Positions 28,939-48,322 are shown, counted from the stretch's first letter. The stretch: DNA of 64,000 nucleotides from a virus (IMGVR_UViG_3300020468_000003:32001-96000); one strand, 5' to 3'. Translations and numbers: made by a program. The notes: generated from the letters alone by a model not told the origin.

Positions 28939-29271
28939 TTACTGGATAGTATATGAATATCCCTCGAAGTGTTCCATAACGTTGAGCATCGTTTCCTTAC
29001 CGTAGCATATAATTGTATGTGTCTGATATGGGGGATGTTTGCTTGCTTTGTGATCTTCGTATGTAAAAGTAAACTTTGGTTTATCATCTGGGTATTCGCC
29101 TGGTGTCCAGATTGATCCGTCTGTGTTGTAGGTATCAAACTCTAATGGATTGATTTCTTTTTTTGATTCTTTCATTTGTTCTACTAGGTGATCGACGCAA
29201 GATGCATAGTAACTTGCATTAAGTGTTTCTTCTGATTCATAGAAGTTGATGTAGTTAAAAGGTTTACTCAT
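28939..29271 (-). CDS. Hypothetical protein
   Basis: Start trimmed to MSKPFNYINF, overlapping the upstream stop. Confidence 0.6.
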   Translation of the reverse strand: MSKPFNYINFYESEETLNASYYASCVDHLVEQMKESKKEINPLEFDTYNTDGSIWTPGEYPDDKPKFTFTYEDHKASKHPPYQTHTIICYGKETMLNVMEHFEGYSYTIQ

Positions 29272-29761
29272 ATTTAAGTGCGACTGTAAATCTGTGTTTG
29301 GTGCGGAAAGAGGTGGCTCTGTGTAAAATTGATGCATCGAAGAAACATAAGCGATTTGGTTCGGGTGCAACTGAGTAGGACTTGTCGTTTACATAGAACT
29401 CTGTTTGTCCTAAAAAGTTGGGTGTCCACATTTCTTTGTGTGGATAGTATAGGAATGTCACTCCCTCATCTGCATCTGTATGAAAGTATGGTATTTCATT
29501 TGGTGCGAACAAATTGATATACATTCTTAACAGACATCGGTTTGGTACAAGTGGTTGAGTCTTCTCATAGAAAAAGCGATAGATGAACTCTCCCTTCTTG
29601 ATTTCTGCACTCATTCCAGTTGGAGCTACCTCTGCTTCATCCTTTTCGCCAAAAGTGTAGTTCGCATTCTGGCAGTACATAAGCACATTAGCCTGTTCTT
29701 GTGGATTTAACCAGTCGTCCCGTATATGAACTGGCACATCCTTTCCGTAAACAAAATCCAT
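29264..29761 (-). CDS. 2OG-Fe(II) oxygenase
   Basis: HTD...PNRLCFFDASILH...RFTVA (HxD...H...R). Confidence 0.85.
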   Translation of the reverse strand: MDFVYGKDVPVHIRDDWLNPQEQANVLMYCQNANYTFGEKDEAEVAPTGMSAEIKKGEFIYRFFYEKTQPLVPNRCLLRMYINLFAPNEIPYFHTDADEGVTFLYYPHKEMWTPNFLGQTEFYVNDKSYSVAPEPNRLCFFDASILHRATSFRTKHRFTVALKYE

Positions 29762-30402
29762 TATTTGCTAGAATTGTAAGAAGTTACTGCAAAGTTGAAT
29801 GCAATTGAGATACGTGGGTTACCAGGTGTTGGTTTGTTTGCTTTAACCTCATGCATTAGATATGATGGAAACATGATCAAATCTCCTTCATTGATGTCAG
29901 GAGAGAACAGTTCATCATAATTGTGTGAATCGAACTCTAATGAATGAGATCGAATGATGCCCATTGGATCAGTAAAGGTCAATGGACTATGCACCTTCTT
30001 ATCATAACATAGAAAATGTACACATGCAAAATGATTTGGGTCTAACGGATCTCCAATATGATTGTGTGATTCTTGCCACTCCTCGTCCTCATAGCAATTA
30101 TACCAACATTCGTCTACCTCCACCTCAAACTTGTTATCGAAAAAGGTTTTAATTAAATTATGATACTGTCTCTGTAATTCTCCTTGCGACATGAAAAAGC
30201 GATTGATGTCATCTCTTTCATGACTTGTCTTGATCTTTGTCGTTAACCATCCTTCTGGTGGTGTTAATGTTTTTTGAGTCGATTCAATAAATGGTAGCAG
30301 ATCTTGCTTCAACCTTTCATTGTTCTCTACCTGTCCCTGATAGTAAGAGATCGGGAAAATGGTTCTACGTTGCGTTTCCATGGAATTCATCAAATTCTGC
30401 AT
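29761..30402 (-). CDS. 2OG-Fe(II) oxygenase-like protein (TIGR02466-type, HxH)
   Basis: QESHNH...EGDLIMFPSYLMHEV...RISIAFN. Confidence 0.85.
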   Translation of the reverse strand: MQNLMNSMETQRRTIFPISYYQGQVENNERLKQDLLPFIESTQKTLTPPEGWLTTKIKTSHERDDINRFFMSQGELQRQYHNLIKTFFDNKFEVEVDECWYNCYEDEEWQESHNHIGDPLDPNHFACVHFLCYDKKVHSPLTFTDPMGIIRSHSLEFDSHNYDELFSPDINEGDLIMFPSYLMHEVKANKPTPGNPRISIAFNFAVTSYNSSK

Positions 30403-30712
30403 AATGATCGGGACTTTTCTTATTTCTTTTCTTCACAAACTCCAACTGATGCCAACTATGTTCATAACACAATAAAAGAACATGTATGTACCTGTGTGGA
30501 TTATTCTTATCGTACTTACAATTTGGTTTCTCTTTAACAGCAATTTCAATTGTAATGTAATTTAAGACTGGTCTCCATCCACCCTTAACTCTTGCTTGAT
30601 TGTCTTCAGATTTTGGTTTACAATAAACCCATCCTTCATGCTTCATTCCCAGATCCGTAGTCCAGATTACATAATCATCGACTTCTGGGATGTATTGTGT
30701 TTCTGTACTCAT
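30365..30712 (-). CDS. Conserved cyanophage hypothetical protein
   Basis: 115 aa; YIPEVDDYVIW...EGWVY...YITIE. Confidence 0.7.
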   Translation of the reverse strand: MSTETQYIPEVDDYVIWTTDLGMKHEGWVYCKPKSEDNQARVKGGWRPVLNYITIEIAVKEKPNCKYDKNNPHRYIHVLLLCYEHSWHQLEFVKKRNKKSPDHYAEFDEFHGNAT

Positions 30713-30879
30713 TAATCGGGAACTGCTTTAAGGTCTTTTGGACTGATGCCTTCATTGATCAGTTGATCTAATCTAACCTTACATTGTTCTTTTGTGAGTC
30801 CTGATGTATTTGCTTCAGGTGATTTAAACCATCCCATTGTTGTTTGTTGGACGATTTGCCATTTTTTCTCTTGAGTCAT
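30712..30879 (-). CDS. Small hypothetical protein (55 aa)
   Basis: Hand-translated MTQEKKWQIVQQTTMGWFKSPEANTSGLTKEQCKVRLDQLINEGISPKDLKAVPD*. Confidence 0.7.
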   Translation of the reverse strand: MTQEKKWQIVQQTTMGWFKSPEANTSGLTKEQCKVRLDQLINEGISPKDLKAVPD

Positions 30880-31695
30880 TTAATTAAACCTAATTGGTGC
30901 GGTGCGGGTTGTGATATCCCCTGTCATCATTGCATTGAATGAAATGGTAATACGAGGAATGCCATTATAATCTTGATAGGATTGCTGTACTCCGTGTGGC
31001 AACCACGATGGAAACATAAGCAAACTACCATTATTTACGATTGGTGAAACTGTACCTGAGTTATGAGCAGCATGATCTTTATTTACACTTGGTTCAATAA
31101 CTCTTGCAGCAGGTCTTGGATCACTAAAAGTTGTAGTTTGAGCAAATTGTGTTCCCAGATTTGGGGTACTTACATGCCATACTCCACTAAAGATAGAATT
31201 TGGGTGTGTATGATTCATGTGACAATATAATGGTCTAAAACCAACATTTGCCCACATTGAAGTCAAATAGACTTGTTCTACCTTATAATCATAATATGCA
31301 AATACAGCAGCAGCTTCTTTAAGTAAGAAACTATGTACTTGTTCAAAACCTTCTCTCTGGTGAAGATCATCGAAACTGTACCAACCTACAGGATCTTTTG
31401 GATCTCCTGCAATTGTTCCTGCATTCTCATCTTTTGTTGCTGCTAAGACTTTTTCCTTAACATCTTTAAGGAAATCTTCATCATCAACTCTTGATTTAAA
31501 AAGTAAAGAGGGAAAAAGAACACCAATGTCCCTATCGGTAACTTTGATTTCTTTTTCAACCTCCCTTGTTGGAGATACAGGTTCATTACTTAGTTGATTT
31601 ACTTCAACTCCAGTATTAATAGTAAATCCACCTTCTGGTTTACCAGATGGTATTTTTACATCACGATTCCATCCCGAATTATGTTCAGTTGTCAA
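30880..31695 (-). CDS. 2OG-Fe(II) oxygenase-like protein (TIGR02466 family)
   Basis: MWAN...HTHPNSIFSGVW...FSDPRP...LLMFPSWLPHGV...RITISFN. Confidence 0.85.
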   Translation of the reverse strand: MTTEHNSGWNRDVKIPSGKPEGGFTINTGVEVNQLSNEPVSPTREVEKEIKVTDRDIGVLFPSLLFKSRVDDEDFLKDVKEKVLAATKDENAGTIAGDPKDPVGWYSFDDLHQREGFEQVHSFLLKEAAAVFAYYDYKVEQVYLTSMWANVGFRPLYCHMNHTHPNSIFSGVWHVSTPNLGTQFAQTTTFSDPRPAARVIEPSVNKDHAAHNSGTVSPIVNNGSLLMFPSWLPHGVQQSYQDYNGIPRITISFNAMMTGDITTRTAPIRFN

Positions 31696-31738
31696 TTAAG
31701 TATCTCCGAATATGGTTATTATAGCATAATAAATTGAT

Positions 31739-31930
31739 TTAGACAAGGAACTCATCCATATAGTAATCAACTGTTACTTGCATTTTGGCAGCTTCCTTTT
31801 CTAAGTAGTCTCCATGTTGAGCAAGACCTTTATAGTATTCTTGTCTCTGTTTCCACTTGATGATTTCGATTTCAGATGTAATCATGTATTTTTTTAATAA
31901 TTCCATAAATTCTTCTATCTCTTCATCATT
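31739..31930 (-). CDS. Small hypothetical protein
   Basis: MNDEEIEEF...VTVDYYMDEFLV. Confidence 0.6.
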   Translation of the reverse strand, partial: NDEEIEEFMELLKKYMITSEIEIIKWKQRQEYYKGLAQHGDYLEKEAAKMQVTVDYYMDEFLV

Positions 31931-33698
31931 CATAAGTAACAAATCCCTTGGGTCTTTGTGTCCATTTCGGATTCTTATCTCTGTAACTTGGTTCTATAGT
32001 TTTCCTTTCTTGCTTTTTAACTTTCATTTTAACACGATCAGGCATTGAATCATATATGTGTTGTGGCACATCATCTTCTGTCCCAACGAAAGTCATATCC
32101 CCACTTGAGTCGTGTATAGTCTTACATAAGTATTCATACAATGAAGGAAGTGTCTCTGCATAATTTATATATTTCTGTTGGGTCTCTCTGTATAGTTCTT
32201 GTAACCTATCACAATGCATTTCTGGATCAAATCCTTTCAATTTTCCTAGAGATCTATGCATTTGTGCATCAATTGGAGAATAGTTCATTCCTGCAGCAAC
32301 ACACTGGAATCCCGCAGTACCCTCCCTAAATTGATGATATTTGTATGCGGACGTAGCATAGTAAAGTAATTCAAGATTCTCTCCCATTTCAGTTTCATAA
32401 TTCAATGAATTATTGATTGTTGGGTCAATTCTAACTCTCTCTGTTACATCTTGCCAGTATGGTGTATCATCTCTTGAACTCAATGCATAATGCATACCAA
32501 CAAAGTTTGCATGACCATAGAAAATATTTCTAAGTGCATAATTAAATGCATCCCTATCCCACTGATTAACAAAATCTTTGCGTAGTGTATAGATTAATGA
32601 TAATAACCACTCATATGTTGTCATTAATCCTGTACTCTCTAATGGTTCAACAAAACCACTTGATAAACCAATCGCAACTACATTCTTCTCCCATGTCTTT
32701 TCATGTATTCCATTTCTCATTGTAATGGGTTTAAATTCAAGATCCTCAATAGGAACATTATCATAACGTGTGCGGATGTAATCCTTGAACTCCTCAAGAG
32801 CTTCATCATCACTGATATACTTATCACTATAAACATACCCTGCACCAATACGTGACCATAAAGGTATGTTCCATGTCCATCCATTACTGAGAGCAGTGCA
32901 ATTTGTAAATGGTTCTAGTTGTTTATTCTTATCTGTATATGGTATATGTGTTGCCCATGCTTTATTATTTGGAATTATGTTCTCAATACTATTAAATTTA
33001 ACTCCTAATGCACCCTCTAATAATAAACTTTTGAAACCAGTGCAATCAATGTATAAATCAGCAGTTACTTTCTCTTTATTTTGTAAAATTAAAGACTCTA
33101 TACCATCATCATTTGTATTAATCTTTTCAACTGTTGAATTAATTAACTTTACACCCTTTGGAAGACATATCTTTTTCTTAAGATATTGTCCTAATGCGGT
33201 AGCGTCAAAATGAAATGCAACATCTTGAACAAATGAGAAACCAGGTGTCTTTCCACTACTATCATCAGACATCTTATTATTCTCTGAAATTGCAGCAATT
33301 GGATAGTGGCAACGTGCAAATGAATTTTGATCAAGACCACCCCTATTTCCTTTTAAGAACCACCAGTCATTTTGTGCTACTTGTTCTATTGGTCTTTGTG
33401 CCTCTCCAAAAGGATAATGGAATCCTCCTGTATCTTTTCCTAACCAATCTGTAAATTTAATACTTAACTTATAACTACCATCTGTTTCTGTTAAAAGATC
33501 TTTATCCTCAAGACCTATCAATGATGACCAGTGCTTTATACCACCAAGAGTACTTTCTCCAACTCCCAATATAGGAAAGTCTGGACTCTCAATGATAGTA
33601 ACATCAATGTTCGGAAGTTGTGTTGCAAATGTGGCAGCAGACATCCAACCTGATGAACCACCACCCACAATGCATATGCTTTTAATCTTTTTGCTCAT
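31926..33698 (-). CDS. Flavin-dependent (tryptophan-type, PrnA-like) halogenase
   Basis: IVGGGSSG FAD motif, GVGEST, catalytic Lys (SYKLSIKF), WTWNIP, GFVEPLESTG; start trimmed to MSKKIKS. Confidence 0.9.
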   Translation of the reverse strand: MSKKIKSICIVGGGSSGWMSAATFATQLPNIDVTIIESPDFPILGVGESTLGGIKHWSSLIGLEDKDLLTETDGSYKLSIKFTDWLGKDTGGFHYPFGEAQRPIEQVAQNDWWFLKGNRGGLDQNSFARCHYPIAAISENNKMSDDSSGKTPGFSFVQDVAFHFDATALGQYLKKKICLPKGVKLINSTVEKINTNDDGIESLILQNKEKVTADLYIDCTGFKSLLLEGALGVKFNSIENIIPNNKAWATHIPYTDKNKQLEPFTNCTALSNGWTWNIPLWSRIGAGYVYSDKYISDDEALEEFKDYIRTRYDNVPIEDLEFKPITMRNGIHEKTWEKNVVAIGLSSGFVEPLESTGLMTTYEWLLSLIYTLRKDFVNQWDRDAFNYALRNIFYGHANFVGMHYALSSRDDTPYWQDVTERVRIDPTINNSLNYETEMGENLELLYYATSAYKYHQFREGTAGFQCVAAGMNYSPIDAQMHRSLGKLKGFDPEMHCDRLQELYRETQQKYINYAETLPSLYEYLCKTIHDSSGDMTFVGTEDDVPQHIYDSMPDRVKMKVKKQERKTIEPSYRDKNPKWTQRPKGFVTYE

Positions 33699-33828
33699 TC
33701 TTTTTGTTTCTACGTTCTTCAACTAATTTTAGGAACTCCTCATCTGGAGTAAAGATTACAGGACCTTCGGCAATCCTCTCCTCCAGTTCATCCAATAATG
33801 GATCCTTTTCATTGTTTTTTTCAGTCAT
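33682..33828 (-). CDS. Small charged protein (48 aa)
   Basis: Hand-translated MTEKNNEKDPLLDELEERIAEGPVIFTPDEEFLKLVEERRNKKNEQKD*. Confidence 0.6.
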   Translation of the reverse strand: MTEKNNEKDPLLDELEERIAEGPVIFTPDEEFLKLVEERRNKKNEQKD

Positions 33829-33832
33829 TTTT

Positions 33833-34078
33833 TTACAAGAGATCTAAGTCTTTTCCGTGTTTGAGTTTATCCACTTCAACAGGTGGCACAAAGGCATTGA
33901 AATTATTTTTAATTTGCTCTAGTCTATCTGCTTGAGCACCTAGTTTTTTTAAAACAGTGCGACTATTAACATCAAACTTTTTAGCAGATGTATCAATCCC
34001 CTTTCCTAAAAGGACATCAATTAAAAAATCACACTCAGATTCATCTAAGTCTGATTGTAATCTATGTATGGTTCCCAT
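33833..34078 (-). CDS. Hypothetical protein
   Basis: Start trimmed to MGTIHRLQ. Confidence 0.55.
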   Translation of the reverse strand: MGTIHRLQSDLDESECDFLIDVLLGKGIDTSAKKFDVNSRTVLKKLGAQADRLEQIKNNFNAFVPPVEVDKLKHGKDLDLL

Positions 34079-34088
34079 AATACTCAAT

Positions 34089-34979
34089 TTAAACACCCTT
34101 GTCTTGTGTACTTTCGTCAACGATTGTATCTAATTCAGATAACTTTGGATACATTCCCTTAAATGTATCTGCGTTTTGTTTCTGTTTTTTCATATCATCA
34201 TCCATCTCTATTCTACCTGTGTTTTCATTAAATTGCAATAGCATTTTTCTACCTGCCTTTCTAGCAGTTTCTCTAAAGTTTGGCGATATACCAGTTGTAT
34301 CATTTGAAAATGTGGTTACATGATCACTTAACCATCCAGTACAAACATACTTACTACCTTTAGTGACAGTTTCTCCTCTATGATAGAAATACCATGAAGC
34401 AGGGAAACAAATCAACTTTCCAGTTTTTGGTGCTACATTGAGTATATCATTACTATTTCCACCAACTCTAAATTGTGTATGCCCACCATCAAAATCATCA
34501 TTGAGATACCACATATATGTGAATAATCTTCTTGCTTGCAAAACAGTTCCAGAATCTCTATATCCTCTTAATGGAAATACTATCGTATCTAAAATTGGAG
34601 AGACATCATCATCAGCATGCCAATCATAACTTTCTCCAACATTAGTTCTTTGTACTTGATATCCAGAATCAACCATGTCCCCTTTTGATTGAACAACATC
34701 ACCTAATTTTTCTTTTATGTAAGTTAAATATTTTTTTACATGTGGGGAAAGTACTTCAAAAAAGTATGCATCATATTCTTCCCATTCTGGCCATTGAGAT
34801 ATCCACAGATCAGTTGATTTTTTGATACTTGTTCCATCAGCGTGTCCCTCAGTATCAGATGCTGTGATTCCCGCACTTTTACGATGATCATATTCAAATT
34901 TTTCAATGATCTCTTTGCATTTATCAGCAGGTATGACATCATCATACTGCACTATCATATCGGCAAAATTAGTTATCAT
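34089..34979 (-). CDS. 2OG-Fe(II) oxygenase (prolyl-4-hydroxylase-like)
   Basis: YDWHAD...RLFTYMWYLNDDFDGGHT.F...PKTGKLICFP...HRG..V..GSKY. Confidence 0.88.
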   Translation of the reverse strand: MITNFADMIVQYDDVIPADKCKEIIEKFEYDHRKSAGITASDTEGHADGTSIKKSTDLWISQWPEWEEYDAYFFEVLSPHVKKYLTYIKEKLGDVVQSKGDMVDSGYQVQRTNVGESYDWHADDDVSPILDTIVFPLRGYRDSGTVLQARRLFTYMWYLNDDFDGGHTQFRVGGNSNDILNVAPKTGKLICFPASWYFYHRGETVTKGSKYVCTGWLSDHVTTFSNDTTGISPNFRETARKAGRKMLLQFNENTGRIEMDDDMKKQKQNADTFKGMYPKLSELDTIVDESTQDKGV

Positions 34980-35478
34980 GTTGTTTTAAATTAAATGCTA
35001 AAATAATTCTTTTATCCATAACAGGTGGACTAAAATGATATATCTCTGGGTCCCAGATTAATAAATCTCCAACCTTAACTTTAGATGTTGTTGTGTTACA
35101 TTGATGCAACGGATCTTGAAAATAAGTAGATTGTCCCTCGGTTAAAAATAAACAACCAGAACCACTTATTTTTGTTCCTGTATGATTATGTATAGGATGA
35201 AATCCACCAGGTTCATACACTTGAACCCAAGAATTGTCAAATGCTTCTGCAGGAGCTATAGGTTCTAAAACTTTGTAAATCCACGGAACTATATGTGCTT
35301 CATTCTTTGTACCATAAGTTGTCCAAAGTCTTCCATGATCAACATATTTTCCATACTTCTTACACCATTCTTCAACCTTATCAAGAAATCCCTCTGGTAT
35401 GGGAATATTATCTTTAATAACAATTGAAGGTGGAAAAAGTTGTTGATGCTCTGGTCCTTTTTTCTTTTCTTCACTCAT
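34969..35478 (-). CDS. 2OG-Fe(II) oxygenase-like protein (HxH type)
   Basis: WVQVYEPGGFHPIHNH...GDLLIW...H...RIILAFN. Confidence 0.8.
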   Translation of the reverse strand: MSEEKKKGPEHQQLFPPSIVIKDNIPIPEGFLDKVEEWCKKYGKYVDHGRLWTTYGTKNEAHIVPWIYKVLEPIAPAEAFDNSWVQVYEPGGFHPIHNHTGTKISGSGCLFLTEGQSTYFQDPLHQCNTTTSKVKVGDLLIWDPEIYHFSPPVMDKRIILAFNLKQHDN

Positions 35479-35875
35479 AAAATGCCTCTAATCCAACTGG
35501 TTCTCCAAAACTATAATCATAAGTTAATGCATCATGACAAACATAATGCGGATGATCAGGTTTTACACCTAATCTTTTACACAATTCAAGATGATTATCC
35601 TCCATGAGTTCTACTGCATACAACATATTGTTTAGTATGTGTTCCTCATCATGATACTGCAGCAATTTAGTTTTAAGAGTAACTAAAAAGTTACCACTAC
35701 CTGCTGAATTATCTAGGAAAGTAGAATTAGGGTTCTTTTTTACATCATCTGGTATATCATTTATCATTCTAGCACAAACATCCATAGGTGTAAACACTTC
35801 GCTAGTAGCATTTATCCTATCATCTGATCTTTCAATTACAGATCCTACACTCTTATTGTGGTCGTTTCTTTTCAT
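35471..35875 (-). CDS. Stand-alone SAM-binding half of an N6-adenine DNA methyltransferase
   Basis: EVFTP (motif X), FLDNSAGSGNFL (I), LYAVEL (II), CHDAL (III); no NPPY. Confidence 0.8.
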   Translation of the reverse strand: MKRNDHNKSVGSVIERSDDRINATSEVFTPMDVCARMINDIPDDVKKNPNSTFLDNSAGSGNFLVTLKTKLLQYHDEEHILNNMLYAVELMEDNHLELCKRLGVKPDHPHYVCHDALTYDYSFGEPVGLEAFYE

Positions 35876-38800
35876 AAAATATCAGGAATAGTTCTGAATA
35901 ATTCTTTTGAATTAGTATTAACTATCCTATTCTTTAGAACCATTTGATGTACTTCATCAGATCTTAAATAATCTGCAAGTTTATTACTCTCCTCCTCAGA
36001 AGATGTTTTTATGATAACTGTAGATCCACTAATAGAATGATCGTAAGGTTTGATACGGATCTGTCCAAAACCTTGTCCACCGTATTTACTATTCATTACA
36101 ACTCCATGTTGATTAATACAACAAGTATGCTGAGACTTATCAACATTAGTAACTTGCATCTCTCCATTTTTACCACCCATTGTAGTTATCATAGGATACT
36201 CTCCCTCAATCAATTGATTTAAGTTCAAATCTCCACGTTGATAGCGATGTCCCATATTGTTAGAAACATCTGAAACAAAATCTGGATTAGTAAATCTAAT
36301 ACAAGTATCATCAGTAAGTTGAATATTCTTTACTGTACCATCAAGATAAGTTAATTTTGTTAGTCCAGTGTATCCACGTTTCCATGTACAAATACATGTC
36401 TCTGTCATTGATATAGATGGAAATGTATCAGGAGATAATGCTTCAATAGAAACAATACCTGGTGTTGAAAACAAAGTTCTTCTAAACTTTGATGTGGATT
36501 TAGCAAAGTGTTTTGATCGAATTACTTCTGATACATAATCAGATCTTTTCATTGCACTTAGATAAAAATGTGTATCTAAAGTTTTTGCACATCCACCTGT
36601 GGTTGCACCTGTTACTGTAGATGTATCTGTATATGGTGGATTACCAACTGTAGCACTAAACTGCATTTTGTAATTACTAAGGTTGTCGGTTACATTAATT
36701 TTAGCATTAATCTGCTTTATTGCATAGCGATGAGTAGGATCGTTTTCCCACACCACTATGTCATCGGGTTCCCAAGATTTATTCTCTATTGCATATAAAG
36801 AATGAAGTCCAGAGGGATCTCCATGTATATACAACTTTTCAGTTGTATCCTTTTTTAAAGGAATCATCCTATCAAGAATATCTAATGAAAGTGTCTTTTG
36901 ATTCTTTCTTGTTGTTGCAAGTTTCTGTAAGGTTCCACATTCATCTTTAGACATAGAATGTTCAATATCTATGATTCCTTGATTAATTCTATTGATCCAA
37001 GATTTAGGTATAATCTTTTGTTCTAAACAAGCTTTGATAATACCAGTAGTGTCTCCTGTGTCATGTTCATAATATTTTGAACTAAGAATACTATCTACAC
37101 TTTTAGGTGTGGATTTATTCTTTATCATATGGAAGATAACTAATCCTATTCTCTCCATGTATGCTTGAATAGTTTCTGTTTTCTGTGCTATCTCAGACTT
37201 ATCAAAATGTGTAGAAAATTTAGATGAACTGGTAAGTTTCTTATTACTGTTTGCGTTAGCATTGTTTTCATTTACTGTAAAAGAACTCCATGAAGATAAC
37301 TTTGCACTCTTCTGAAAATTATCAAATTCAATGTCTCCTAACTTAAGAAAATCTAATTGAGATACAATACCTGATATCAAAGATACTGCACTGTCTACAT
37401 CATTAGATAGAATTTCGTTTAGACGTTCTGGTGTTACTTCTTCAAAATCAGAGAAGTATTCAAAGATAGGAACTAAATCAAGAAGTTCATATTCAGATTC
37501 TGTTAACTCATGATTCAAATCACATGCAGTAAAATACATGTTTCTGATTGTAGTAAAACAACGTTCTGGGCAAAAATCAATTACATCCCAAAAGTTTCTC
37601 TTTGTTGATCCACCACGGAAAGCAAACTGTGTCCATTGTTCTCTTGATGATCCTTCTGCACAATTCATAACAGTATCAATACCCTCTGCAGTTAGACCAA
37701 GAACATTTGCAGTTTTAGTTAAGATAACTGTAGATGTGTTAGTATCAATATGTGATCTGATTGTCTCAGAATTTTCTCTAGTATCTGAAGTTACAACTAA
37801 TGGTTTAAATCTTGTTGATTTAAAATAATCTACAAGTGCATGACATGATGCCATAGAAGGCAAAGTTATCATTACATGTCTACAGTTCTTTAGTATTCTT
37901 TTGTTATACTTTATTCCATCTTGAGTAAACACTTTACTCATAAATTCATCAACTAATATTGGTTCAGCAAAATCATCCTCATCTTTGTTTACTCTAAAAA
38001 TATTACCCATTGCATCAGGATCATCGCCATATAAGTCTTGATATTTACTGGACTCATACTTTGCAAGAATCAATCTCATCTGTGGAGAATTTACATACTC
38101 CTTTATACCTTGCAATTTATACAATTGCTCCTCAAAATATGAATATACAAATCTAAATTTAGGAAAATCTTCTAAGATTTTATGTGCAGTTCCTGAGACA
38201 TACAATACTTTTGTATCGAAGTGATCTCTAAGACTTATCCATTGATCTCCCTCATATCCAAGATGTGCTTCATCGAATACTATTAGATCAATATTACAAG
38301 GTAGATTCTTATATCTGTTAGGAGCTTGAATAGTAGAATATAGAACTATTTGTTTTTCAGTTCCCATCCAATACTCTATCTCATTCTTAAACTGATCTAC
38401 TTCACCATCACGAATATCAATGAATATAATATTATCAAAGTTTTTAAACTGTTGGGAATCATCTCTCCATGATTGTTTAGGAGAATTTCTATATGAAACA
38501 ACTAAGGATACCTTAACATTACTCTCTACAATAGAGGAAAGAACCATTGTAGATTTACCTGCACGACACTTAGCAAATAACAAATACTCTTTCCATTCAT
38601 CCCATGTTGAAGTTATCTCAGATACAAATTCTTTTTGGTGTTTGCGAAGTTTACGATATTCTTTTTCCTCTACATTATTTGTAAAAAACTCTTCTTCAAT
38701 AAGATCCTTTACAACATCAATACTTAAACCATGACCATCTTCAATTTTATAAGTCTCTCTACCAGTTTGTGTAATACCACGTTGTTTTTTTAACCAACTA

Positions 38801-38991
38801 TGTATCTCATGATCTCTACCATCAAAATCTGTCCACCATCCTCTCTTTATTCTTGCACTACCAACTGCTGCTAAATCTTGTTTTGACTTACCATAGTCTC
38901 CACCTTTATGTCTATCTTCATATGTGTGTATGGTTTCTCCTAAACCGAAGGCAGACGGATTACCTTTAAACCCGTCAAGGTAAATGTTCAT
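35872..38991 (-). CDS. SF2 (DEAH) helicase fused to an Eco57I-like adenine MTase catalytic/specificity region, with a possible N-terminal GIY-YIG/T5orf172-like domain
   Basis: LRKHQ (Q motif), AKCRAGKS (Walker A), VFDEAH, VSGT, QFAFRGG; C-terminal VGNPPY; N-terminal IY...LGET...R...DHEIHSWL...GRETY. Confidence 0.8.
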   Translation of the reverse strand: MNIYLDGFKGNPSAFGLGETIHTYEDRHKGGDYGKSKQDLAAVGSARIKRGWWTDFDGRDHEIHSWLKKQRGITQTGRETYKIEDGHGLSIDVVKDLIEEEFFTNNVEEKEYRKLRKHQKEFVSEITSTWDEWKEYLLFAKCRAGKSTMVLSSIVESNVKVSLVVSYRNSPKQSWRDDSQQFKNFDNIIFIDIRDGEVDQFKNEIEYWMGTEKQIVLYSTIQAPNRYKNLPCNIDLIVFDEAHLGYEGDQWISLRDHFDTKVLYVSGTAHKILEDFPKFRFVYSYFEEQLYKLQGIKEYVNSPQMRLILAKYESSKYQDLYGDDPDAMGNIFRVNKDEDDFAEPILVDEFMSKVFTQDGIKYNKRILKNCRHVMITLPSMASCHALVDYFKSTRFKPLVVTSDTRENSETIRSHIDTNTSTVILTKTANVLGLTAEGIDTVMNCAEGSSREQWTQFAFRGGSTKRNFWDVIDFCPERCFTTIRNMYFTACDLNHELTESEYELLDLVPIFEYFSDFEEVTPERLNEILSNDVDSAVSLISGIVSQLDFLKLGDIEFDNFQKSAKLSSWSSFTVNENNANANSNKKLTSSSKFSTHFDKSEIAQKTETIQAYMERIGLVIFHMIKNKSTPKSVDSILSSKYYEHDTGDTTGIIKACLEQKIIPKSWINRINQGIIDIEHSMSKDECGTLQKLATTRKNQKTLSLDILDRMIPLKKDTTEKLYIHGDPSGLHSLYAIENKSWEPDDIVVWENDPTHRYAIKQINAKINVTDNLSNYKMQFSATVGNPPYTDTSTVTGATTGGCAKTLDTHFYLSAMKRSDYVSEVIRSKHFAKSTSKFRRTLFSTPGIVSIEALSPDTFPSISMTETCICTWKRGYTGLTKLTYLDGTVKNIQLTDDTCIRFTNPDFVSDVSNNMGHRYQRGDLNLNQLIEGEYPMITTMGGKNGEMQVTNVDKSQHTCCINQHGVVMNSKYGGQGFGQIRIKPYDHSISGSTVIIKTSSEEESNKLADYLRSDEVHQMVLKNRIVNTNSKELFRTIPDIL

Positions 38992-39013
38992 TTTCTCCGA
39001 ATAAATTGGGTGC

Positions 39014-39094
39014 GAGAAACAAAAACTCGGACTTACAGGACGTAATTTCTCTGCTGAACAAAGACAACCATAGATCCTTGCCTGTTTTGTTTCC
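39014..39094 (-). ncRNA. Putative structured 5' leader of the helicase-MTase gene
   Basis: GGGAAACAAAA/TTTTGTTTCTC closing helix with two internal hairpins. Confidence 0.4.
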
Positions 39095-39102
39095 CTGTAT
39101 TA

Positions 39103-39157
39103 ATTATAGCATGAAAAAACCCCCTGTAAAGGGGGTTGTGACAGTTTCTAAACTGTT
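39103..39157 (-). promoter_or_regulatory. Early-promoter element copy 13 (hairpin doubles as terminator)
   Basis: TATAAT 39103-39108; AACCCCC/GGGGGTT hairpin with T-run; box TGTGACAGTTTCTAAACTGT. Confidence 0.78.
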
Positions 39158-45664: not shown

Positions 45665-46753
45665 TTAATCTATTATGTCCATAATGGACACTTTGTAATC
45701 TGTCACTCTTTTCTGTATTAGTTTACCATACTCTTCATTAAGTTCGCAACCTATGTAATCTCTACCTAATTGTTTTGCTACCATTCCAGTAGTACCTGAT
45801 CCCATGAAAGGATCTAAAATTATATCTCCCTTTTCGCTCCCTGCTTTAATACATGGTTCAATTAATGCAGGTGGAAATACAGCAAAGTGTGCACCTTTAT
45901 ATGGTTTATTTGTTACTGACCAGACAGATCGTTTATTTTTTGTTGGATATGATTTTGTAAGTCCGCTATGTGGTTGGAGTCCTGTTCCTGTGTTATGGTA
46001 TTTTCCGTTTGTTCTGTCTCTTGTTCCCCAATCTTTTGCGGGTTCTTTGATTGCTTCATTATCGTAGTGGTATTTTCTATTTTTACTAAACAAAAATATA
46101 TATTCGTGTGCTTTAGTACACCTATCCCTTACACTTTCTGGCATAGGATTAGGTTTATGCCAAATGATATCTTGTCTTAGATACCATCCATCTGCTCTCA
46201 TTGCGAAGGCAAAGAGCCATGGGATTCCGATGAGGTCTTTTTCTTTAAGTCCATCGATTCTATTTCCTCTACGAGGACACACATCTGGTAAGTCTTGTTT
46301 TGAATTTGCAACAGTTTGTTTTGGAAGTCCTTGTCCTTTTCCAGGTCTGTAGTTATAGTAACTATCCCCAAGATTAACCCAACAAGTTCCATCATCTGTA
46401 AGCACATTGCGAACCTCCTTAAATACGTTTACTAATTGATCAACATATTCTTCTGGAGTCTCCTCCAATCCGATTTGATCATCTTGTCTTACTGCACCAC
46501 ATTTTGGACACACACTTTTGTATATGTAATCTCCAACACCACCCATGATGTCAGCATTTTTATGACCAGTAATACAATTTGAACCTTGCTTACCTTTTTT
46601 TCTATGATCACAATTAGGATCTCCTCCTATCCAAGTAGCAGTTCCATAATCCCTGAGACCATAGTATGGTGGAGATGTTACACACATCCTTGCCTGTTCG
46701 TCAAATTGTTTGAGTGTCTCCCGACAATCTCCAAATAAAATTGTGTCTCTCAT
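45665..46753 (-). CDS. Beta-class N4-cytosine/N6-adenine DNA methyltransferase
   Basis: VTSPPY (motif IV) precedes ILDPFMGSGTTG (motif I); HFAVFP. Confidence 0.92.
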   Translation of the reverse strand: MRDTILFGDCRETLKQFDEQARMCVTSPPYYGLRDYGTATWIGGDPNCDHRKKGKQGSNCITGHKNADIMGGVGDYIYKSVCPKCGAVRQDDQIGLEETPEEYVDQLVNVFKEVRNVLTDDGTCWVNLGDSYYNYRPGKGQGLPKQTVANSKQDLPDVCPRRGNRIDGLKEKDLIGIPWLFAFAMRADGWYLRQDIIWHKPNPMPESVRDRCTKAHEYIFLFSKNRKYHYDNEAIKEPAKDWGTRDRTNGKYHNTGTGLQPHSGLTKSYPTKNKRSVWSVTNKPYKGAHFAVFPPALIEPCIKAGSEKGDIILDPFMGSGTTGMVAKQLGRDYIGCELNEEYGKLIQKRVTDYKVSIMDIID

Positions 46754-47934
46754 GATCTGATAACTGATGTTGCTGCTTGTCCTTTGTTGAATACAGTATC
46801 AATAACTGCTTCAACCTTTCTTGCGGTTGAAATACCAACCTTAGAGTAAACTGGAACACATACAAGTCCATAAACTTTGTCTTCCGCACCCTTACGGATT
46901 ACTCTACCAATAGTCTGACTAATACCAATGTAATCCATAGATCTCATAAACAATACTGCCTCAAGACCTTTTACATTGATACCCTCTGAGAGGATGCTGT
47001 GATGGAGTACAACAAACTTTGTACCATCTACACCCCACTCGTTAAGTGTATTGAAGAACTCTTCTCTACTAACCTTCTTACCATTAACAAAAGCACCTGT
47101 CTTAGAAGTAATAAACATCCAGTTGTATCCACGCACTTGTAAATCCATAACAAAAGGAGTTTGAGATATCAAGTTAGTAATCTGCTTTGTAGACTTAGCA
47201 CATATCAATACTTTGTTCTTCTGAATATTATCAAGAGCATTGATCATTTGATCGCAATCAGCATCTACAACCAACTCATCCTTCTCTAGTATTCTTGTCT
47301 TGTATACTGCAACCTTTGGTGGTAAGATATGTCCTTCCTCCACTAACTTAGGTGCAGGTACTTGGCAAATAACATTACCAAAGATATCAGCATCATTCAT
47401 ACCAACCTTAAGAGGTGTAAGAGAATGCTTTGGTGTAGCAGTAAAGAAGTATGCTCTTGCAGAATACATTGAAAAGTATTCAACTGCTTCAACAAAGTTC
47501 TTCTGAACTCCATTGTGTGCTTCATCAAAATAGATTGTATCTACATTAATACCACTCTCTACAATCTTATGTAATGAATGATATGTAGTAAACATAAGAG
47601 TATTCTTTCCCTTATTTGCATAGTGAAATAATTTAACATCGTTTACTTGAGTACTGCAGAAATATAGACTCTTACCAGTTAGATCGCCACTGTGAACATG
47701 CATTACATCATCAGGATGAATGTCAATCATTTCGCGAAACTCTGAGCATAACTGCTTTGCAAGTAATATACGAGGTGCAACTACTACAATAGTCTTAGGA
47801 GCACTCTTGAACTGATATATCGCATCTTCTATCATGCACATTGTTTTACCACCACCAGTCGGAACAATAACTTGTCCCTTAGTGTTAGACTGCATAGCAA
47901 CTAAAGAATCAATTTGATGTGGACGTAATTGCAT
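46750..47934 (-). CDS. SF2 helicase (type III restriction Res-like ATPase, no obvious nuclease domain)
   Basis: MQLRPHQ, PTGGGKT, FDEAH, FTATP, LSEGI, QTIGRVIR; start trimmed to 47934. Confidence 0.88.
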   Translation of the reverse strand: MQLRPHQIDSLVAMQSNTKGQVIVPTGGGKTMCMIEDAIYQFKSAPKTIVVVAPRILLAKQLCSEFREMIDIHPDDVMHVHSGDLTGKSLYFCSTQVNDVKLFHYANKGKNTLMFTTYHSLHKIVESGINVDTIYFDEAHNGVQKNFVEAVEYFSMYSARAYFFTATPKHSLTPLKVGMNDADIFGNVICQVPAPKLVEEGHILPPKVAVYKTRILEKDELVVDADCDQMINALDNIQKNKVLICAKSTKQITNLISQTPFVMDLQVRGYNWMFITSKTGAFVNGKKVSREEFFNTLNEWGVDGTKFVVLHHSILSEGINVKGLEAVLFMRSMDYIGISQTIGRVIRKGAEDKVYGLVCVPVYSKVGISTARKVEAVIDTVFNKGQAATSVIRS

Positions 47935-47955
47935 TAACTTTGTTTCGTTATACTT

Positions 47956-48010
47956 ATTATAGCAAACACAATGCCATTTTGCAAATCCATGTGCCAGTAT
48001 CTTAACTGTC
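47956..48010 (-). promoter_or_regulatory. Early-promoter element copy 14
   Basis: TATAAT 47956-47961; box TGTGCCAGTATCTTAACTGTC at the same spacing; the upstream gene ends KDS* in the box. Confidence 0.7.
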
Positions 48011-48322
48011 TTTGTCCATTTTATCAGAAATTTTTTTGAGTGCTTCTTCCCATCCATCTTTATCTTGAGACCATTTATTTAATGGGCAAGACTCTAATAT
48101 AACTCTAGCTTTGGCAGGTATGAAACATCCACATTCTGCACACATATCCTTTTTCTTTATCCACATCTCACATGATTTACAAATCTCATGTCTAACCTTA
48201 TAGGTTTCATCAGATACAACTAAAGACTCAGGTCCATTCTTTTTAATATAGGTAATAATATCCCATGAAAAATTAGCAAAATTTTTCGTCTTCTCAATAA
48301 AAGATGGTTCGTCTTTTTCCAT
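48002..48322 (-). CDS. Cys-rich protein (DUF6171-like; R..IC..C...C..CGC...K.....CP..KW)
   Basis: CKSC...CAECGCFIPAKARVILESCPLNKW. Confidence 0.7.
   Translation of the reverse strand: MEKDEPSFIEKTKNFANFSWDIITYIKKNGPESLVVSDETYKVRHEICKSCEMWIKKKDMCAECGCFIPAKARVILESCPLNKWSQDKDGWEEALKKISDKMDKDS

What the first reader, a model, noticed from the sequence alone, without database searches (positions are those of the whole stretch)
35471..39157. Phage RM-like system: nuclease-like/helicase/MTase fusion plus a separate protein supplying the SAM-binding half (split methyltransferase)
Seen: the 1039-aa protein has an N-terminal GIY-YIG/T5orf172-like segment, an SF2 DEAH motor, then an MTase region with intact NPPY but degenerate motifs X and I (QKTLSLDILDRM; HGDPSGLH). 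The translationally coupled 134-aa ORF (ATGA overlap) has intact motifs X, I, II and III (EVFTP; FLDNSAGSGNF; LYAVEL; CHDAL) and stops just before motif IV. The two are complementary. The operon has its own early-box promoter and structured leader. Inference: a two-chain gamma-class adenine MTase coupled to a translocase, expressed early, perhaps for self-marking and restriction of host or co-infecting phage DNA.
Basis: partly seen in the sequence, partly recalled or inferred. Interest (0 to 1): 0.78.

Follow-up and report, generated by a model that had tools for sequence, protein, structure and literature searches.

The report
Phage methyltransferase with separate cofactor-binding subunit
A marine T4-like cyanophage encodes a 1039-residue nuclease-like/helicase/adenine-methyltransferase protein followed by a very conserved 134-residue "half methyltransferase" holding only the cofactor-binding motifs. 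The pairing recurs in nearly every related phage contig examined and has not been tested experimentally.

Summary
Two translationally coupled genes (ATGA overlap) lie on the minus strand behind an early-type promoter and a conserved leader.

The large protein has four parts:
- a weakly GIY-YIG/T5orf172-like N-domain;
- an intact SF2 DEAH ATPase;
- a linker;
- an M.TaqI-like gamma-class N6-adenine MTase with its TRD.

The small protein has perfect motifs X, I, II and III and ends just before motif IV.

The partnership is strongly supported by comparison:
- 96 of 96 distinct small ORFs with enough upstream DNA follow a motif-IV gene.
- 57 of 60 MTase-domain genes are followed by the small ORF.
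- Some partners start directly at NPPY, so they have no N-half at all.
- Close single-chain relatives exist in canonical order and in circularly permuted order, with the breakpoint between motifs III and IV.

The large protein is not missing its N-half. AlphaFold predicts a complete Rossmann fold in cis, and its motif I (DPSGLH) resembles active M.TaqI (EPACAH).

The restriction role is inferred only. The same split MTase was already reported by this scan on another genome. I class it as a new variant of a known kind, interest 0.6.

The parts
39118..39137 (-). Intrinsic terminator hairpin of the upstream gene (AACCCCCTTTACAGGGGGTT plus a T run). The -35-like TTTACA lies in its loop.
   Evidence: terminator scan; sequence
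39103..39130 (-). Sigma-70-type early promoter-like site: TTTACA, 16-nt spacer, extended -10 TGcTATAAT (11 of 12 matches)
   Evidence: The same terminator-promoter arrangement precedes the leader in most of 26 other contigs.
38999..39104 (-). Conserved ~100-nt leader element (5' UTR cassette). Its hairpin is at 39081..39035. A possible 12-codon uORF lies at 39071..39033.
   Evidence: The 32-mer core is exact in 26 IMG/VR contigs, in front of unrelated genes. Three adjacent pairs show compensatory double changes. No Rfam family matches. There is one copy in the window.
35872..38991 (-). Large ORF, 1039 aa (P0001): N-domain, SF2 ATPase, linker, gamma-class MTase, TRD
38662..38991 (-). N-terminal domain (res 1-110). 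It is possibly a T5orf172/GIY-YIG-like nuclease, with Y4, R27 and E79 at the expected places.
   Evidence: weak; inconclusive
37552..38661 (-). SF2 helicase-like ATPase (res ~111-480): Walker A 140-148, DEAH 240-243, SGT 266-268, motif V 427-437, motif VI 455-461
   Evidence: (ResIII 30.9 bits against a 22.5 cut-off)
36862..37551 (-). Linker or coupler region of unknown fold (res 481-710). It belongs to phrog_22930 together with the helicase.
35875..36861 (-). M.TaqI-like N6-adenine MTase plus TRD (res 711-1039). The motifs are: X-like helix 700-709; motif I-like IHGDPSGLH 722-730; motif II VVWEND 746-751; motif III NVTDN 766-770; motif IV NPPY 784-787.
   Evidence: AF2 pLDDT 88, pTM 0.83. Foldseek finds M.TaqI at E 1.4e-11, TM 0.66, then CamA and PglX. 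phrog_3689 matches. Alignment A1.
35471..35875 (-). Small ORF, 134 aa (P0002): a stand-alone SAM-binding half-MTase. The motifs are X EVFTP 26-30, I FLDNSAGSGNF 53-63, II LYAVELMEDNH 85-95 and III VCHDALTYD 112-120. Its ATG overlaps the stop codon of the large ORF.
   Evidence: (phrog_4376, E 1e-69)
34969..35478 (-). Next gene in the same transcription unit, a 2OG-Fe(II) oxygenase whose start overlaps the small ORF by 8 nt. It is context, not part of the MTase.

Best explanation
The locus encodes a phage enzyme with the domain order nuclease-like, SF2 translocase, gamma-class adenine MTase, TRD, which is the Type ISP order. It works together with a separately translated 134-aa SAM-binding half-domain (motifs X, I-III).

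In this gene family the small chain is the constant subunit. The motif-IV (NPPY)/TRD chain is the exchangeable, specificity-determining subunit. The two chains together rebuild one M.TaqI-like Rossmann fold. The gene order, IV-VIII/TRD followed by X/I-III, is that of a circular permutation.

Shown here:
- the domain content;
- near-universal adjacency of the two genes;
- strong conservation of the small chain;
- partners that lack any N-half;
- natural fused forms in both orders.

Inferred:
- that the small chain also supplies, or is required for, SAM binding by the window's own large protein, which still carries a cis N-half;
- that the product methylates phage DNA at a TRD-defined site;
- that the ATPase and N-domain act on unmethylated DNA.
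For: 1. Co-occurrence.
- 96 of 96 distinct small ORFs with at least 1.5 kb upstream have a motif-IV partner within 1.5 kb. In the first, stricter count (51 partners found with the narrower motif-IV pattern) 37 overlapped the small ORF.
- 57 of 60 distinct MTase-domain ORFs found with the MTase domain as query have the small ORF just downstream.

2. Conservation. The small chain has 74% mean column identity, with every motif residue invariant. Its partners have 47% within one TRD family and belong to several unrelated TRD families.

3. Partners with no N-half.
- P-SSM2 gp036 has NPPY at residue 9 and S-CAM7 gp076 at residue 30.
- A 273-aa form is 86% identical to the window's C-half but starts at beta4. 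It occurs in at least 9 contigs, and its protein cluster has 187 member sequences. It is always followed by the small ORF.

4. Complementary coverage of one template.
- The small-chain profile matches CamA residues 28-83 and the MTase-domain profile matches CamA residues 110-276.
- On PADLOC MTase_II model PDLC03273, the small chain covers positions 43-127 and the Bellamy MTase covers 105-413. On the mad2 model the ranges are 269-352 and 357-444.

5. Fused relatives.
- Permuted single chains: P0074, P0115, P0201 and Aeromonas phage Aeh1 gp090, with NPPY or NPPF at residues 8-10 and X/I-III at the C-terminus.
- Canonical single chains: P0078, P0127, P0147.
- P0201 residues 2-302 match P0147 residues 107-408 (E 4e-37), and P0201 341-458 match P0147 3-109.

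6. Homologues of the window's MTase domain with a canonical GxGxG motif I exist. The one with informative flanks (L106) has no small ORF downstream.

7. No other motif-IV gene is present in the window or in the 105-kb genome record.

8. Contigs from RNA libraries of two studies bridge the junction between the large and small ORFs. This is compatible with co-transcription but does not prove it.
Against: - AF2 predicts that residues 720-783 of the large protein already form beta1-alphaA-beta2-alphaB-beta3 next to beta4, with pLDDT 85-91. A trans N-half therefore has no obvious vacant place.
- The cis half keeps the motif II Glu and motif III Asp.
- Its loop D-P-S-G-L-H resembles M.TaqI's functional E-P-A-C-A-H.
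- This module is itself conserved among relatives, so it is not a decaying relic.
- The 'canonical motif I means no small ORF' contrast rests on one informative locus.
- No interaction model and no biochemical data exist.
- Adjacency could partly reflect synteny in a variable island.
Confidence: 0.55

Rival explanations
1. The large protein is a self-sufficient M.TaqI-like MTase that uses its own cis N-half. The small chain still binds it but has an accessory role, for example as a second SAM site or sensor, an assembly or activity regulator, or the partner for N-half-less catalytic subunits that come and go by cassette exchange.
For: - A complete Rossmann fold is predicted in cis.
- M.TaqI is the top fold match.
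- Motif I is M.TaqI-like and motifs II and III are retained.
- The module is conserved among relatives.
- Loci exist with two NPPY genes, one with and one without the module, before a single small ORF (L071).
Against: - The small ORF is retained with invariant SAM motifs in dozens of loci where the only partner carries the module.
- The module is dispensable, as the 273-aa deletion form shows, whereas loss of the small ORF is essentially not seen.
Confidence: 0.25
2. The small ORF is an independent SAM-binding protein, acting for example in cofactor sequestration or sensing as a counter-defence. It merely flanks a variable island where RM-like cassettes insert.
For: - Thousands of stand-alone 100-200-aa relatives exist: 2759 clusters at E<1e-3.
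- The neighbouring cassette varies widely.
Against: - Adjacency also holds in distant phages: the Klebsiella T4-like phage KpV477 and S-SKS1.
- The ORFs frequently overlap.
- Fused permuted forms tie the domain to an NPPY half.
- A half Rossmann fold is unlikely to be stable alone (inference).
Confidence: 0.08
3. The assembly is not a methyltransferase in vivo. The NPPY/TRD module serves only as a sequence- or base-reading head that targets the translocase and nuclease, and the small chain is a regulator.
For: - Motif IV variants occur in some partners: NYPY, NFPF, NSPF.
- Motif I is non-canonical in all partners.
Against: - N, P, P and the aromatic residue of motif IV are invariant or nearly so in the window's family.
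- All SAM-contact motifs are invariant in the small chain.
- Short partners lack any nuclease or ATPase.
Confidence: 0.07

Closest known systems
M.TaqI / CamA / Eco57I-type gamma-class N6-adenine DNA methyltransferases (Pfam PF07669, PF02384)
   Same: - Rossmann catalytic domain with NPPY, followed by a C-terminal TRD.
- M.TaqI is the best fold match (TM 0.66).
- CamA is the best sequence match for both chains.
   Different: - The canonical motifs X and I sit on a separate 134-aa chain encoded downstream.
- The catalytic chain carries only a compact N-half with a non-GxGxG loop, or none at all in relatives.
Type ISP restriction-modification enzymes (LlaGI, LlaBIII); their properties are stated from my own knowledge
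   Same: A single polypeptide with the order nuclease, SF2 translocase, gamma N6A MTase, TRD. Bellamy-type relatives carry an Mrr-like nuclease gene, and their helicase hits PADLOC models of ~1600-aa fused RM enzymes.
   Different: - About 500 residues shorter.
- The N-domain is T5orf172/GIY-YIG-like at best, not PD-(D/E)xK.
- P0001 has no PADLOC or PDB sequence match.
- It has an extra small MTase chain.
- It is phage-encoded.
Natural two-chain C5 MTases M.AquI and M.EcoHK31I (from my own knowledge)
   Same: One catalytic domain is divided between two polypeptides encoded by adjacent genes.
   Different: - Those are cytosine-5 enzymes split near motifs VIII/IX.
- Here an amino-MTase is split between motifs III and IV.
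- The SAM-binding part is encoded second.
- One constant small chain is paired with many different catalytic chains.
Beta-class amino-MTases (order IV-VIII, TRD, X, I-III)
   Same: The gene order of the two chains, and the residue order in the fused relatives (P0074, P0201, Aeh1 gp090), is the beta order.
   Different: The sequences belong to the Eco57I/N6_Mtase (gamma) lineage. Neither chain hit PF01555.
Earlier report of this scan on another cyanophage genome (e1-5931989, e1-5931975)
   Same: The same 133/134-aa SAM-binding half placed after the catalytic and recognition halves, and the same shared-subunit reading.
   Different: - Here the partner is fused to a helicase and an N-terminal nuclease-like domain and keeps a cis N-half.
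- This report adds the permuted and canonical single-chain relatives and the fold of the cis half.

Membership tests
Gamma-class N6-adenine DNA MTase (M.TaqI/Eco57I type) | Motif IV (D/N/S)PP(Y/F) on beta4 | tested here: met
   GNPPY at 783-787. N, P and P are invariant in 24 homologues.
Gamma-class N6-adenine DNA MTase (M.TaqI/Eco57I type) | Class I Rossmann fold plus C-terminal TRD, similar to solved members | tested here: met
   AF2 pLDDT 88. Foldseek finds M.TaqI at E 1.4e-11, TM 0.66, then CamA and PglX.
Gamma-class N6-adenine DNA MTase (M.TaqI/Eco57I type) | Pfam family score above the curated cut-off | tested here: not met
   The large protein scores 21.6 bits on Eco57I against a 25.3 cut-off. 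The small protein scores 20.1 bits on N6_Mtase against 20.4. Homologues do pass the cut-off.
Gamma-class N6-adenine DNA MTase (M.TaqI/Eco57I type) | Motifs X (F/Y-T-P) and I (glycine-rich loop) on the same chain, N-terminal to motif IV | tested here: inconclusive
   The large chain has LSLD in place of FTP and G-D-P-S-G in place of GxGxG. M.TaqI itself has EPACAHG. The canonical motifs are on the small chain.
Type ISP restriction-modification enzyme | Nuclease, SF2 ATPase, MTase and TRD in one polypeptide, in this order | tested here: met
   The nuclease identity is uncertain.
Type ISP restriction-modification enzyme | Mrr-like PD-(D/E)xK nuclease domain | tested here: not met
   The N-domain model has a beta-beta-alpha-beta-alpha layout. 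Its best matches are GIY-YIG nucleases at Z 4-5.
Type ISP restriction-modification enzyme | Sequence similarity to known members | tested here: not met
   P0001 has no PADLOC model at E<0.01 and no PDB chain at E<0.4.
Type ISP restriction-modification enzyme | ATP-driven translocation and DNA cleavage | not testable with these tools
   Needs biochemistry.
T5orf172 / GIY-YIG superfamily | Profile match of the N-terminal domain | tested here: inconclusive
   The window's own domain has no hit at E<1. Of 19 positionally homologous domains, 4 hit T5orf172 (E 4e-6) and MUG113. hhalign between the two groups gives 30% probability, E 5.5e-4.
T5orf172 / GIY-YIG superfamily | GIY-YIG fold | tested here: inconclusive
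   AF2 pLDDT 81. VIA-align's top matches are HIGLE (Z 5.0, 87 residues, rmsd 3.3) and Slx1 (Z 4.2 and 4.1). Foldseek finds nothing.
SF2 helicase-like ATPase (ResIII, PF04851) | Pfam score above cut-off and motifs I, II (DEAH), III, V, VI | tested here: met
   30.9 bits against a 22.5 cut-off.
Two-chain (split) DNA methyltransferase | The two genes always occur together | tested here: met
   96 of 96 and 57 of 60.
Two-chain (split) DNA methyltransferase | Single-chain relatives cover both parts with the break at the same place | tested here: met
   Canonical forms P0147, P0127, P0078. Permuted forms P0201, P0074, P0115, Aeh1 gp090.
Two-chain (split) DNA methyltransferase | Neither chain is a complete domain on its own | tested here: not met
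   This is not met for the window's large chain, which has a predicted complete fold. It is met for the small chain and for the N-half-less partners in relatives.
Two-chain (split) DNA methyltransferase | The chains bind each other and both are needed for activity | not testable with these tools
Needs co-expression and methylome analysis.
Beta-class amino-MTase (PF01555) | Profile match to N6_N4_Mtase | tested here: not met
   No PF01555 hit at E<=1 for either chain. Only the order of the parts is beta-like.

The most novel reading that the evidence does not exclude
One constant, separately encoded SAM-binding half-domain acts as a plug-in cofactor subunit for a whole repertoire of interchangeable catalytic/TRD subunits. 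These partners may be free-standing, in tandem pairs, or fused to nuclease-translocase motors, so phages can change methylation (and perhaps restriction) specificity by swapping cassettes without touching the cofactor module. In this reading, the compact cis N-halves kept by helicase-linked partners have been re-used as helicase-docking adaptors rather than SAM sites. The family would also be a living record of the fission-and-fusion route to circular permutation of DNA MTases, because the canonical, split and permuted states all still exist.
Probability: 0.35. Interest if true: 0.75.

Novelty: new variant of a known kind. Interest (0 to 1): 0.6.

Why it matters
- If the small chain is a required subunit, this is a widespread natural split amino-MTase. 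I found it in hundreds of marine phage contigs and in cultured phages: P-SSM2, S-CAM7, S-SKS1, Bellamy and Klebsiella KpV477. A fused permuted form occurs in Aeromonas Aeh1.
- Annotation currently calls these proteins 'hypothetical', or labels one half as a whole MTase. Methylome and REBASE-style predictions for such phages would be wrong.
- A constant cofactor subunit with hypervariable recognition subunits would be a new way for phages to diversify DNA-modification specificity in the arms race with host restriction or with competing phages.
- The family offers the halves-as-independent-polypeptides evidence that the fission-and-fusion model of circular permutation asks for (criterion quoted in PMC3320104).
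- The system can be tested directly in cultured phages and by co-expression in E. coli.

Tried and rejected
- The look-up of encoding contigs, so the flanks of the canonical-motif-I homologues (P0028-P0051) could not be looked up.

Searches that found nothing:
- Searching those homologues in IMG/VR.
- Searching them in GTDB genomes.
- The metagenome scan gave only two such loci, and only one has informative flanks.
- Rfam has no family for the leader above noise; the RsmY and Phe_leader rows only reflect the terminator.
- Foldseek found no match for the N-domain model.
- P0001 has no PADLOC hit and no PDB sequence hit.
- Four literature searches found no description of this split enzyme. Bujnicki 2002 is not held in the library.

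Weak or limited results:
- The leader's folding energy against shuffles is weak (z = -0.84).
- Laying RNA-library contigs shows presence and contigs that bridge the two ORFs, but cannot show transcription, strand or timing.

Ideas rejected:
- That the 65-aa pre-NPPY module is a decaying remnant. It is conserved within each helicase-linked class.
- That other NPPY halves in the same genome could be the small chain's real partner. None is present in the window or in the 105-kb record, though that record is only about 49% complete.

Full report
**What is there**

The window is part of a T4-like cyanophage. GC content is about 33%. The genome record is 105 kb and about 49% complete.

Two ORFs lie on the minus strand. 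One runs 38991..35872 (1039 aa, P0001) and the other 35875..35471 (134 aa, P0002). The small ORF's ATG overlaps the large ORF's TGA, giving ATGA. A third gene, a 2OG-Fe(II) oxygenase at 35478..34969, overlaps the small ORF by 8 nt, so the transcription unit continues beyond the finding.

**Upstream region**

A terminator hairpin (39137..39118) carries a TTTACA in its loop. It is followed after 16 nt by TGcTATAAT. This is the best promoter-like site in the region, at 11 of 12 matches.

The ~100-nt leader (39104..38999) does not fold better than shuffled sequence (z = -0.84) and matches no Rfam family. It is nevertheless a conserved cassette:
- A 32-nt core occurs exactly in 26 IMG/VR contigs and in P-SSM2.
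- In most of these it sits behind the same kind of terminator-promoter and in front of unrelated genes.
- In the hairpin 39081..39035, three adjacent pairs change on both sides together (AGGA/UCCU to AGAA/UUCU, AAGA/UCUU, AGGG/CCCU), and none is broken.

The element also contains a possible 12-codon uORF preceded by AAGGA.

**The large protein**

- Pfam finds ResIII above its cut-off and Eco57I just below it.
- PHROGs splits the protein into phrog_22930 (residues 9-710, unknown function) and phrog_3689 (719-1036, DNA MTase).
- SF2 motifs I, II (DEAH), III, V and VI are all present.
- An AF2 model of residues 700-1039, built with 24 homologues, has pLDDT 88 and pTM 0.83. Foldseek's best matches are M.TaqI (E 1.4e-11, TM 0.66), CamA and BREX PglX. 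The C-terminal third is therefore a gamma-class adenine MTase with its TRD.

The N-terminal 110 residues are less clear:
- The window's own domain has no Pfam hit.
- Of 19 positionally homologous domains in related proteins, 4 hit T5orf172 (E 4e-6) and MUG113.
- Profile-profile comparison of the two groups gives only 30% probability.
- An AF2 model (pLDDT 81) has GIY-YIG nucleases (HIGLE, Slx1) among its five best fold matches, but at Z 4-5, which is within the range of chance arrangements. Foldseek finds nothing.

I treat 'nuclease-like' as plausible and unproven.

**The small protein**

It matches N6_Mtase profile positions 26-88 and is the defining member type of phrog_4376 (E 1e-69). It carries EVFTP, FLDNSAGSGNF, LYAVELMEDNH and VCHDALTYD and ends about ten residues before the place where motif IV follows in canonical relatives. 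An alignment of 27 phage copies has 74% mean column identity, with all of these motif residues invariant.

**Is the large protein missing its SAM-binding half? No.**

- The AF2 model places beta1 (720-723), alphaA, beta2 (745-748), alphaB and beta3 (766-768) next to beta4/NPPY, with block pLDDT of 85-91.
- Within the family alignment, IHGDPSGLH aligns column for column with the canonical CIPGAGIGTY and LDVGIGCGG of some homologues. The change is GxGxG to G-D-P-S-G.
- Motif II Glu (VVWEND) and motif III Asp (NVTDN) are kept.
- An X-like helix (LDILDRM) is present but lacks the F/Y-T-P.
- M.TaqI, an active enzyme, has EPACAHGPF at motif I (checked). DPSGLH resembles it.

It is not evidence that the site is dead.

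**Evidence for a partnership**

*Neighbours in cultured phages.* In the phage collection the small ORF occurs in 46 records at E<=1e-5, and the large protein in only 9. The neighbours of the small ORF vary:
- helicase, MTase half and small ORF as three separate genes (S-CAM7);
- a second copy behind a 205-aa protein with NPPY at residue 30 (S-CAM7);
- a 193-aa protein with NPPY at residue 9 (P-SSM2 gp036);
- a 459-aa protein with NYPY (S-SKS1);
- helicase, MTase, an Mrr-like nuclease, then the small ORF (Bellamy);
- the reverse order in ACG-2014f.

*Wider survey.* I fetched 80 IMG/VR loci using the small ORF as query, 23 using the MTase domain, and 58 metagenome loci using the MTase domain. 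I then annotated their ORFs.
- Every one of 96 distinct small ORFs with at least 1.5 kb of upstream DNA has a motif-IV partner ending within 1.5 kb.
- Of 60 distinct MTase-domain ORFs found with the MTase query and having at least 450 nt downstream, 57 are followed by the small ORF.
- The partner ORF overlapped the small ORF in 37 of the 51 cases found by my first, stricter count.

*Classes of the partner next to the small ORF.*

| Class | Count |
|---|---|
| No N-half (motif IV within the first 35 residues) | 13 |
| Compact N-half | 21 |
| Longer N-extension | 33 |
| Fused to a long N-terminal part | 25 |
| Motif IV not recognised | 4 |

Seven loci have two tandem NPPY genes before one small ORF (L054, L055, L071, L100, L103, L107, L147).

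*The helicase-less variant.* A 273-aa form is 86% identical to the window's C-half but begins at beta4. It occurs in at least 9 contigs, and its protein cluster has 187 members. It is always followed by the small ORF. In L141 it lies directly behind the same leader element. The cis N-half can therefore be lost, while loss of the small ORF is essentially not seen.

*The canonical exception.* One of the three exceptions, L106, is a homologue with a canonical GIGCGG motif I. This fits the split model, but it is a single case.

**Fused relatives**

A profile of the small chain was searched against 1.84 billion representative proteins. It finds 2759 clusters at E<1e-3, most of them 100-200 aa. The longer hits are of two kinds:
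- Canonical single chains: the small-like domain comes first and NPPY follows about 10 residues later (P0078, P0127, P0147).
- Permuted single chains: NPPY or NPPF is at residues 8-10 and the small-like domain is at the C-terminus (P0074, P0115, P0201).

BLAST shows the permutation directly. P0201 residues 2-302 match P0147 residues 107-408 (31%, E 4e-37), and P0201 341-458 match P0147 3-109. The break lies between motifs III and IV. That is where the small ORF ends and the N-half-less partners begin.

Cultured phages show both states. Aeromonas phage Aeh1 gp090 is a permuted fusion (NPPY at residue 9, FFTP at 295, EPSCGDG at 322). Klebsiella phage KpV477 has a GIY-YIG-plus-NPPY protein, a 110-aa protein and a 153-aa small-like protein in a row.

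The two chains also cover adjacent, non-overlapping parts of single templates:

| Template | Small chain | Partner |
|---|---|---|
| CamA (residues) | 28-83 | 110-276 |
| PADLOC PDLC03273 | 43-127 | 105-413 |
| PADLOC mad2 | 269-352 | 357-444 |

**How it most likely works**

For the family, I consider it well supported that the small chain and an NPPY/TRD chain together form one M.TaqI-like catalytic domain. The small chain is the constant cofactor-binding part and the other chain sets specificity.

For the window's own pair I give 0.55 to the reading that the small chain is needed for SAM binding or activity of the large protein. Three arguments support it:
- The small ORF is kept intact in dozens of loci where the only partner carries the cis module.
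- The window and its genome record hold no other NPPY gene.
- The near-identical C-half works without the module in the 273-aa lineage.

The main rival (0.25) is that the large protein uses its own M.TaqI-like N-half and the small chain has an accessory role.

The two types of compact module correlate with the two helicase types. The 'GDPxGxH' module goes with the phrog_22930 helicase. The 'aKEPDxG' module goes with the S-CAM7b-type helicase. This suggests, without proving, that these modules dock the helicase.

The domain order of nuclease-like, SF2 ATPase, MTase, TRD is that of Type ISP enzymes (my own knowledge). Sequence searches give no link to them. Restriction of host or competitor DNA remains inference.

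**Expression**

Contigs from RNA libraries of two studies cover the locus, and several bridge the junction of the two ORFs. Such contigs cannot show transcription, strand or timing.

**Prior knowledge and novelty**

- Four full-text searches found no paper on this arrangement.
- Natural split C5 MTases (M.AquI, M.EcoHK31I) and circular permutation of MTases are known (my own knowledge; PMC3320104 gives the fission-and-fusion criterion).
- This scan already reported the same split MTase with a shared SAM-binding subunit on another cyanophage genome (e1-5931975, e1-5931989).
- New here: the helicase-fused partner with a retained cis N-half, the fold evidence for that half, the canonical and permuted single-chain relatives, and the counts.
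- I class it as a new variant of a known kind, interest 0.6.

**Limits**

The interaction and the flanks of most canonical homologues therefore could not be tested.

Noticed in passing
window 38999-39104 (minus strand): The leader is a mobile, highly conserved ~100-nt 5' cassette. It is found behind early-type promoters in front of unrelated genes in 26 cyanophage contigs and in P-SSM2. Its hairpin shows three compensatory pairs, and no Rfam family matches. In RNA-library contigs its bin has 3-6 times the depth of the flanks, with many loose ends on both sides.
   Followed up: partly
window 39033-39071 (minus strand): A possible 12-codon uORF lies inside the leader (MVVFVQQRNYVL) with AAGGA 5 nt upstream. 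The covarying stem pairs this SD-like AGGA with codons 11-12. Two of the three compensatory changes are synonymous.
   Followed up: no
window 35537-35581 (small ORF residues 99-113): C99, H108, H110 and C113 are invariant in 27 small-ORF homologues (C-x8-H-x-H-x2-C). This may be a metal site that stabilises the half-domain. It is not a feature of ordinary gamma MTases.
   Followed up: no
L012, L014-L016, L094, L129, L131, L133, L141: This is a helicase-less deletion variant. A 273-284-aa protein, 86-87% identical to the window's C-half, starts at beta4 (MQFSVVVGNPPY) and is followed by the small ORF. In L141 the same leader lies directly upstream.
   Followed up: partly
L054, L055, L071, L100, L103, L107, L147: Two tandem NPPY/TRD genes with different TRDs precede a single small ORF. 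This suggests that one cofactor subunit serves two catalytic subunits.
   Followed up: partly
L006:2939-3502, L008:4985-5587 and about 10 IMG/VR loci: In Bellamy-type cassettes a 187-200-aa protein with an Mrr-like D...(Q/E)xK pattern lies between the MTase and the small ORF. It has no Pfam or PADLOC hit.
   Followed up: no
L005 (S-SKS1), L017, L022, L036, L044, L088: Some partners carry motif IV variants: NYPY, NFPY, NFPF or NSPF in place of NPPY.
   Followed up: no
window 45665-48057 (minus strand): A helicase (phrog_16, 435 aa) and a DNA MTase (phrog_67, 362 aa) lie about 7 kb upstream here. In most other phages this conserved pair lies directly downstream of the small ORF.
   Followed up: no
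window 28939-35478 (minus strand): Directly downstream, and partly translationally coupled, is a cluster of 2OG-Fe(II) oxygenases and a tryptophan-halogenase-like gene. The scan noted it separately as e1-5976356.
   Followed up: no
L191 (Aeromonas phage Aeh1 gp090), L190 (Klebsiella phage KpV477 gp028-030): Cultured T4-like phages of enterobacteria and Aeromonas carry the permuted fused form (Aeh1) and a split form whose NPPY chain has a clear GIY-YIG N-domain (KpV477). They are convenient experimental models.
   Followed up: partly
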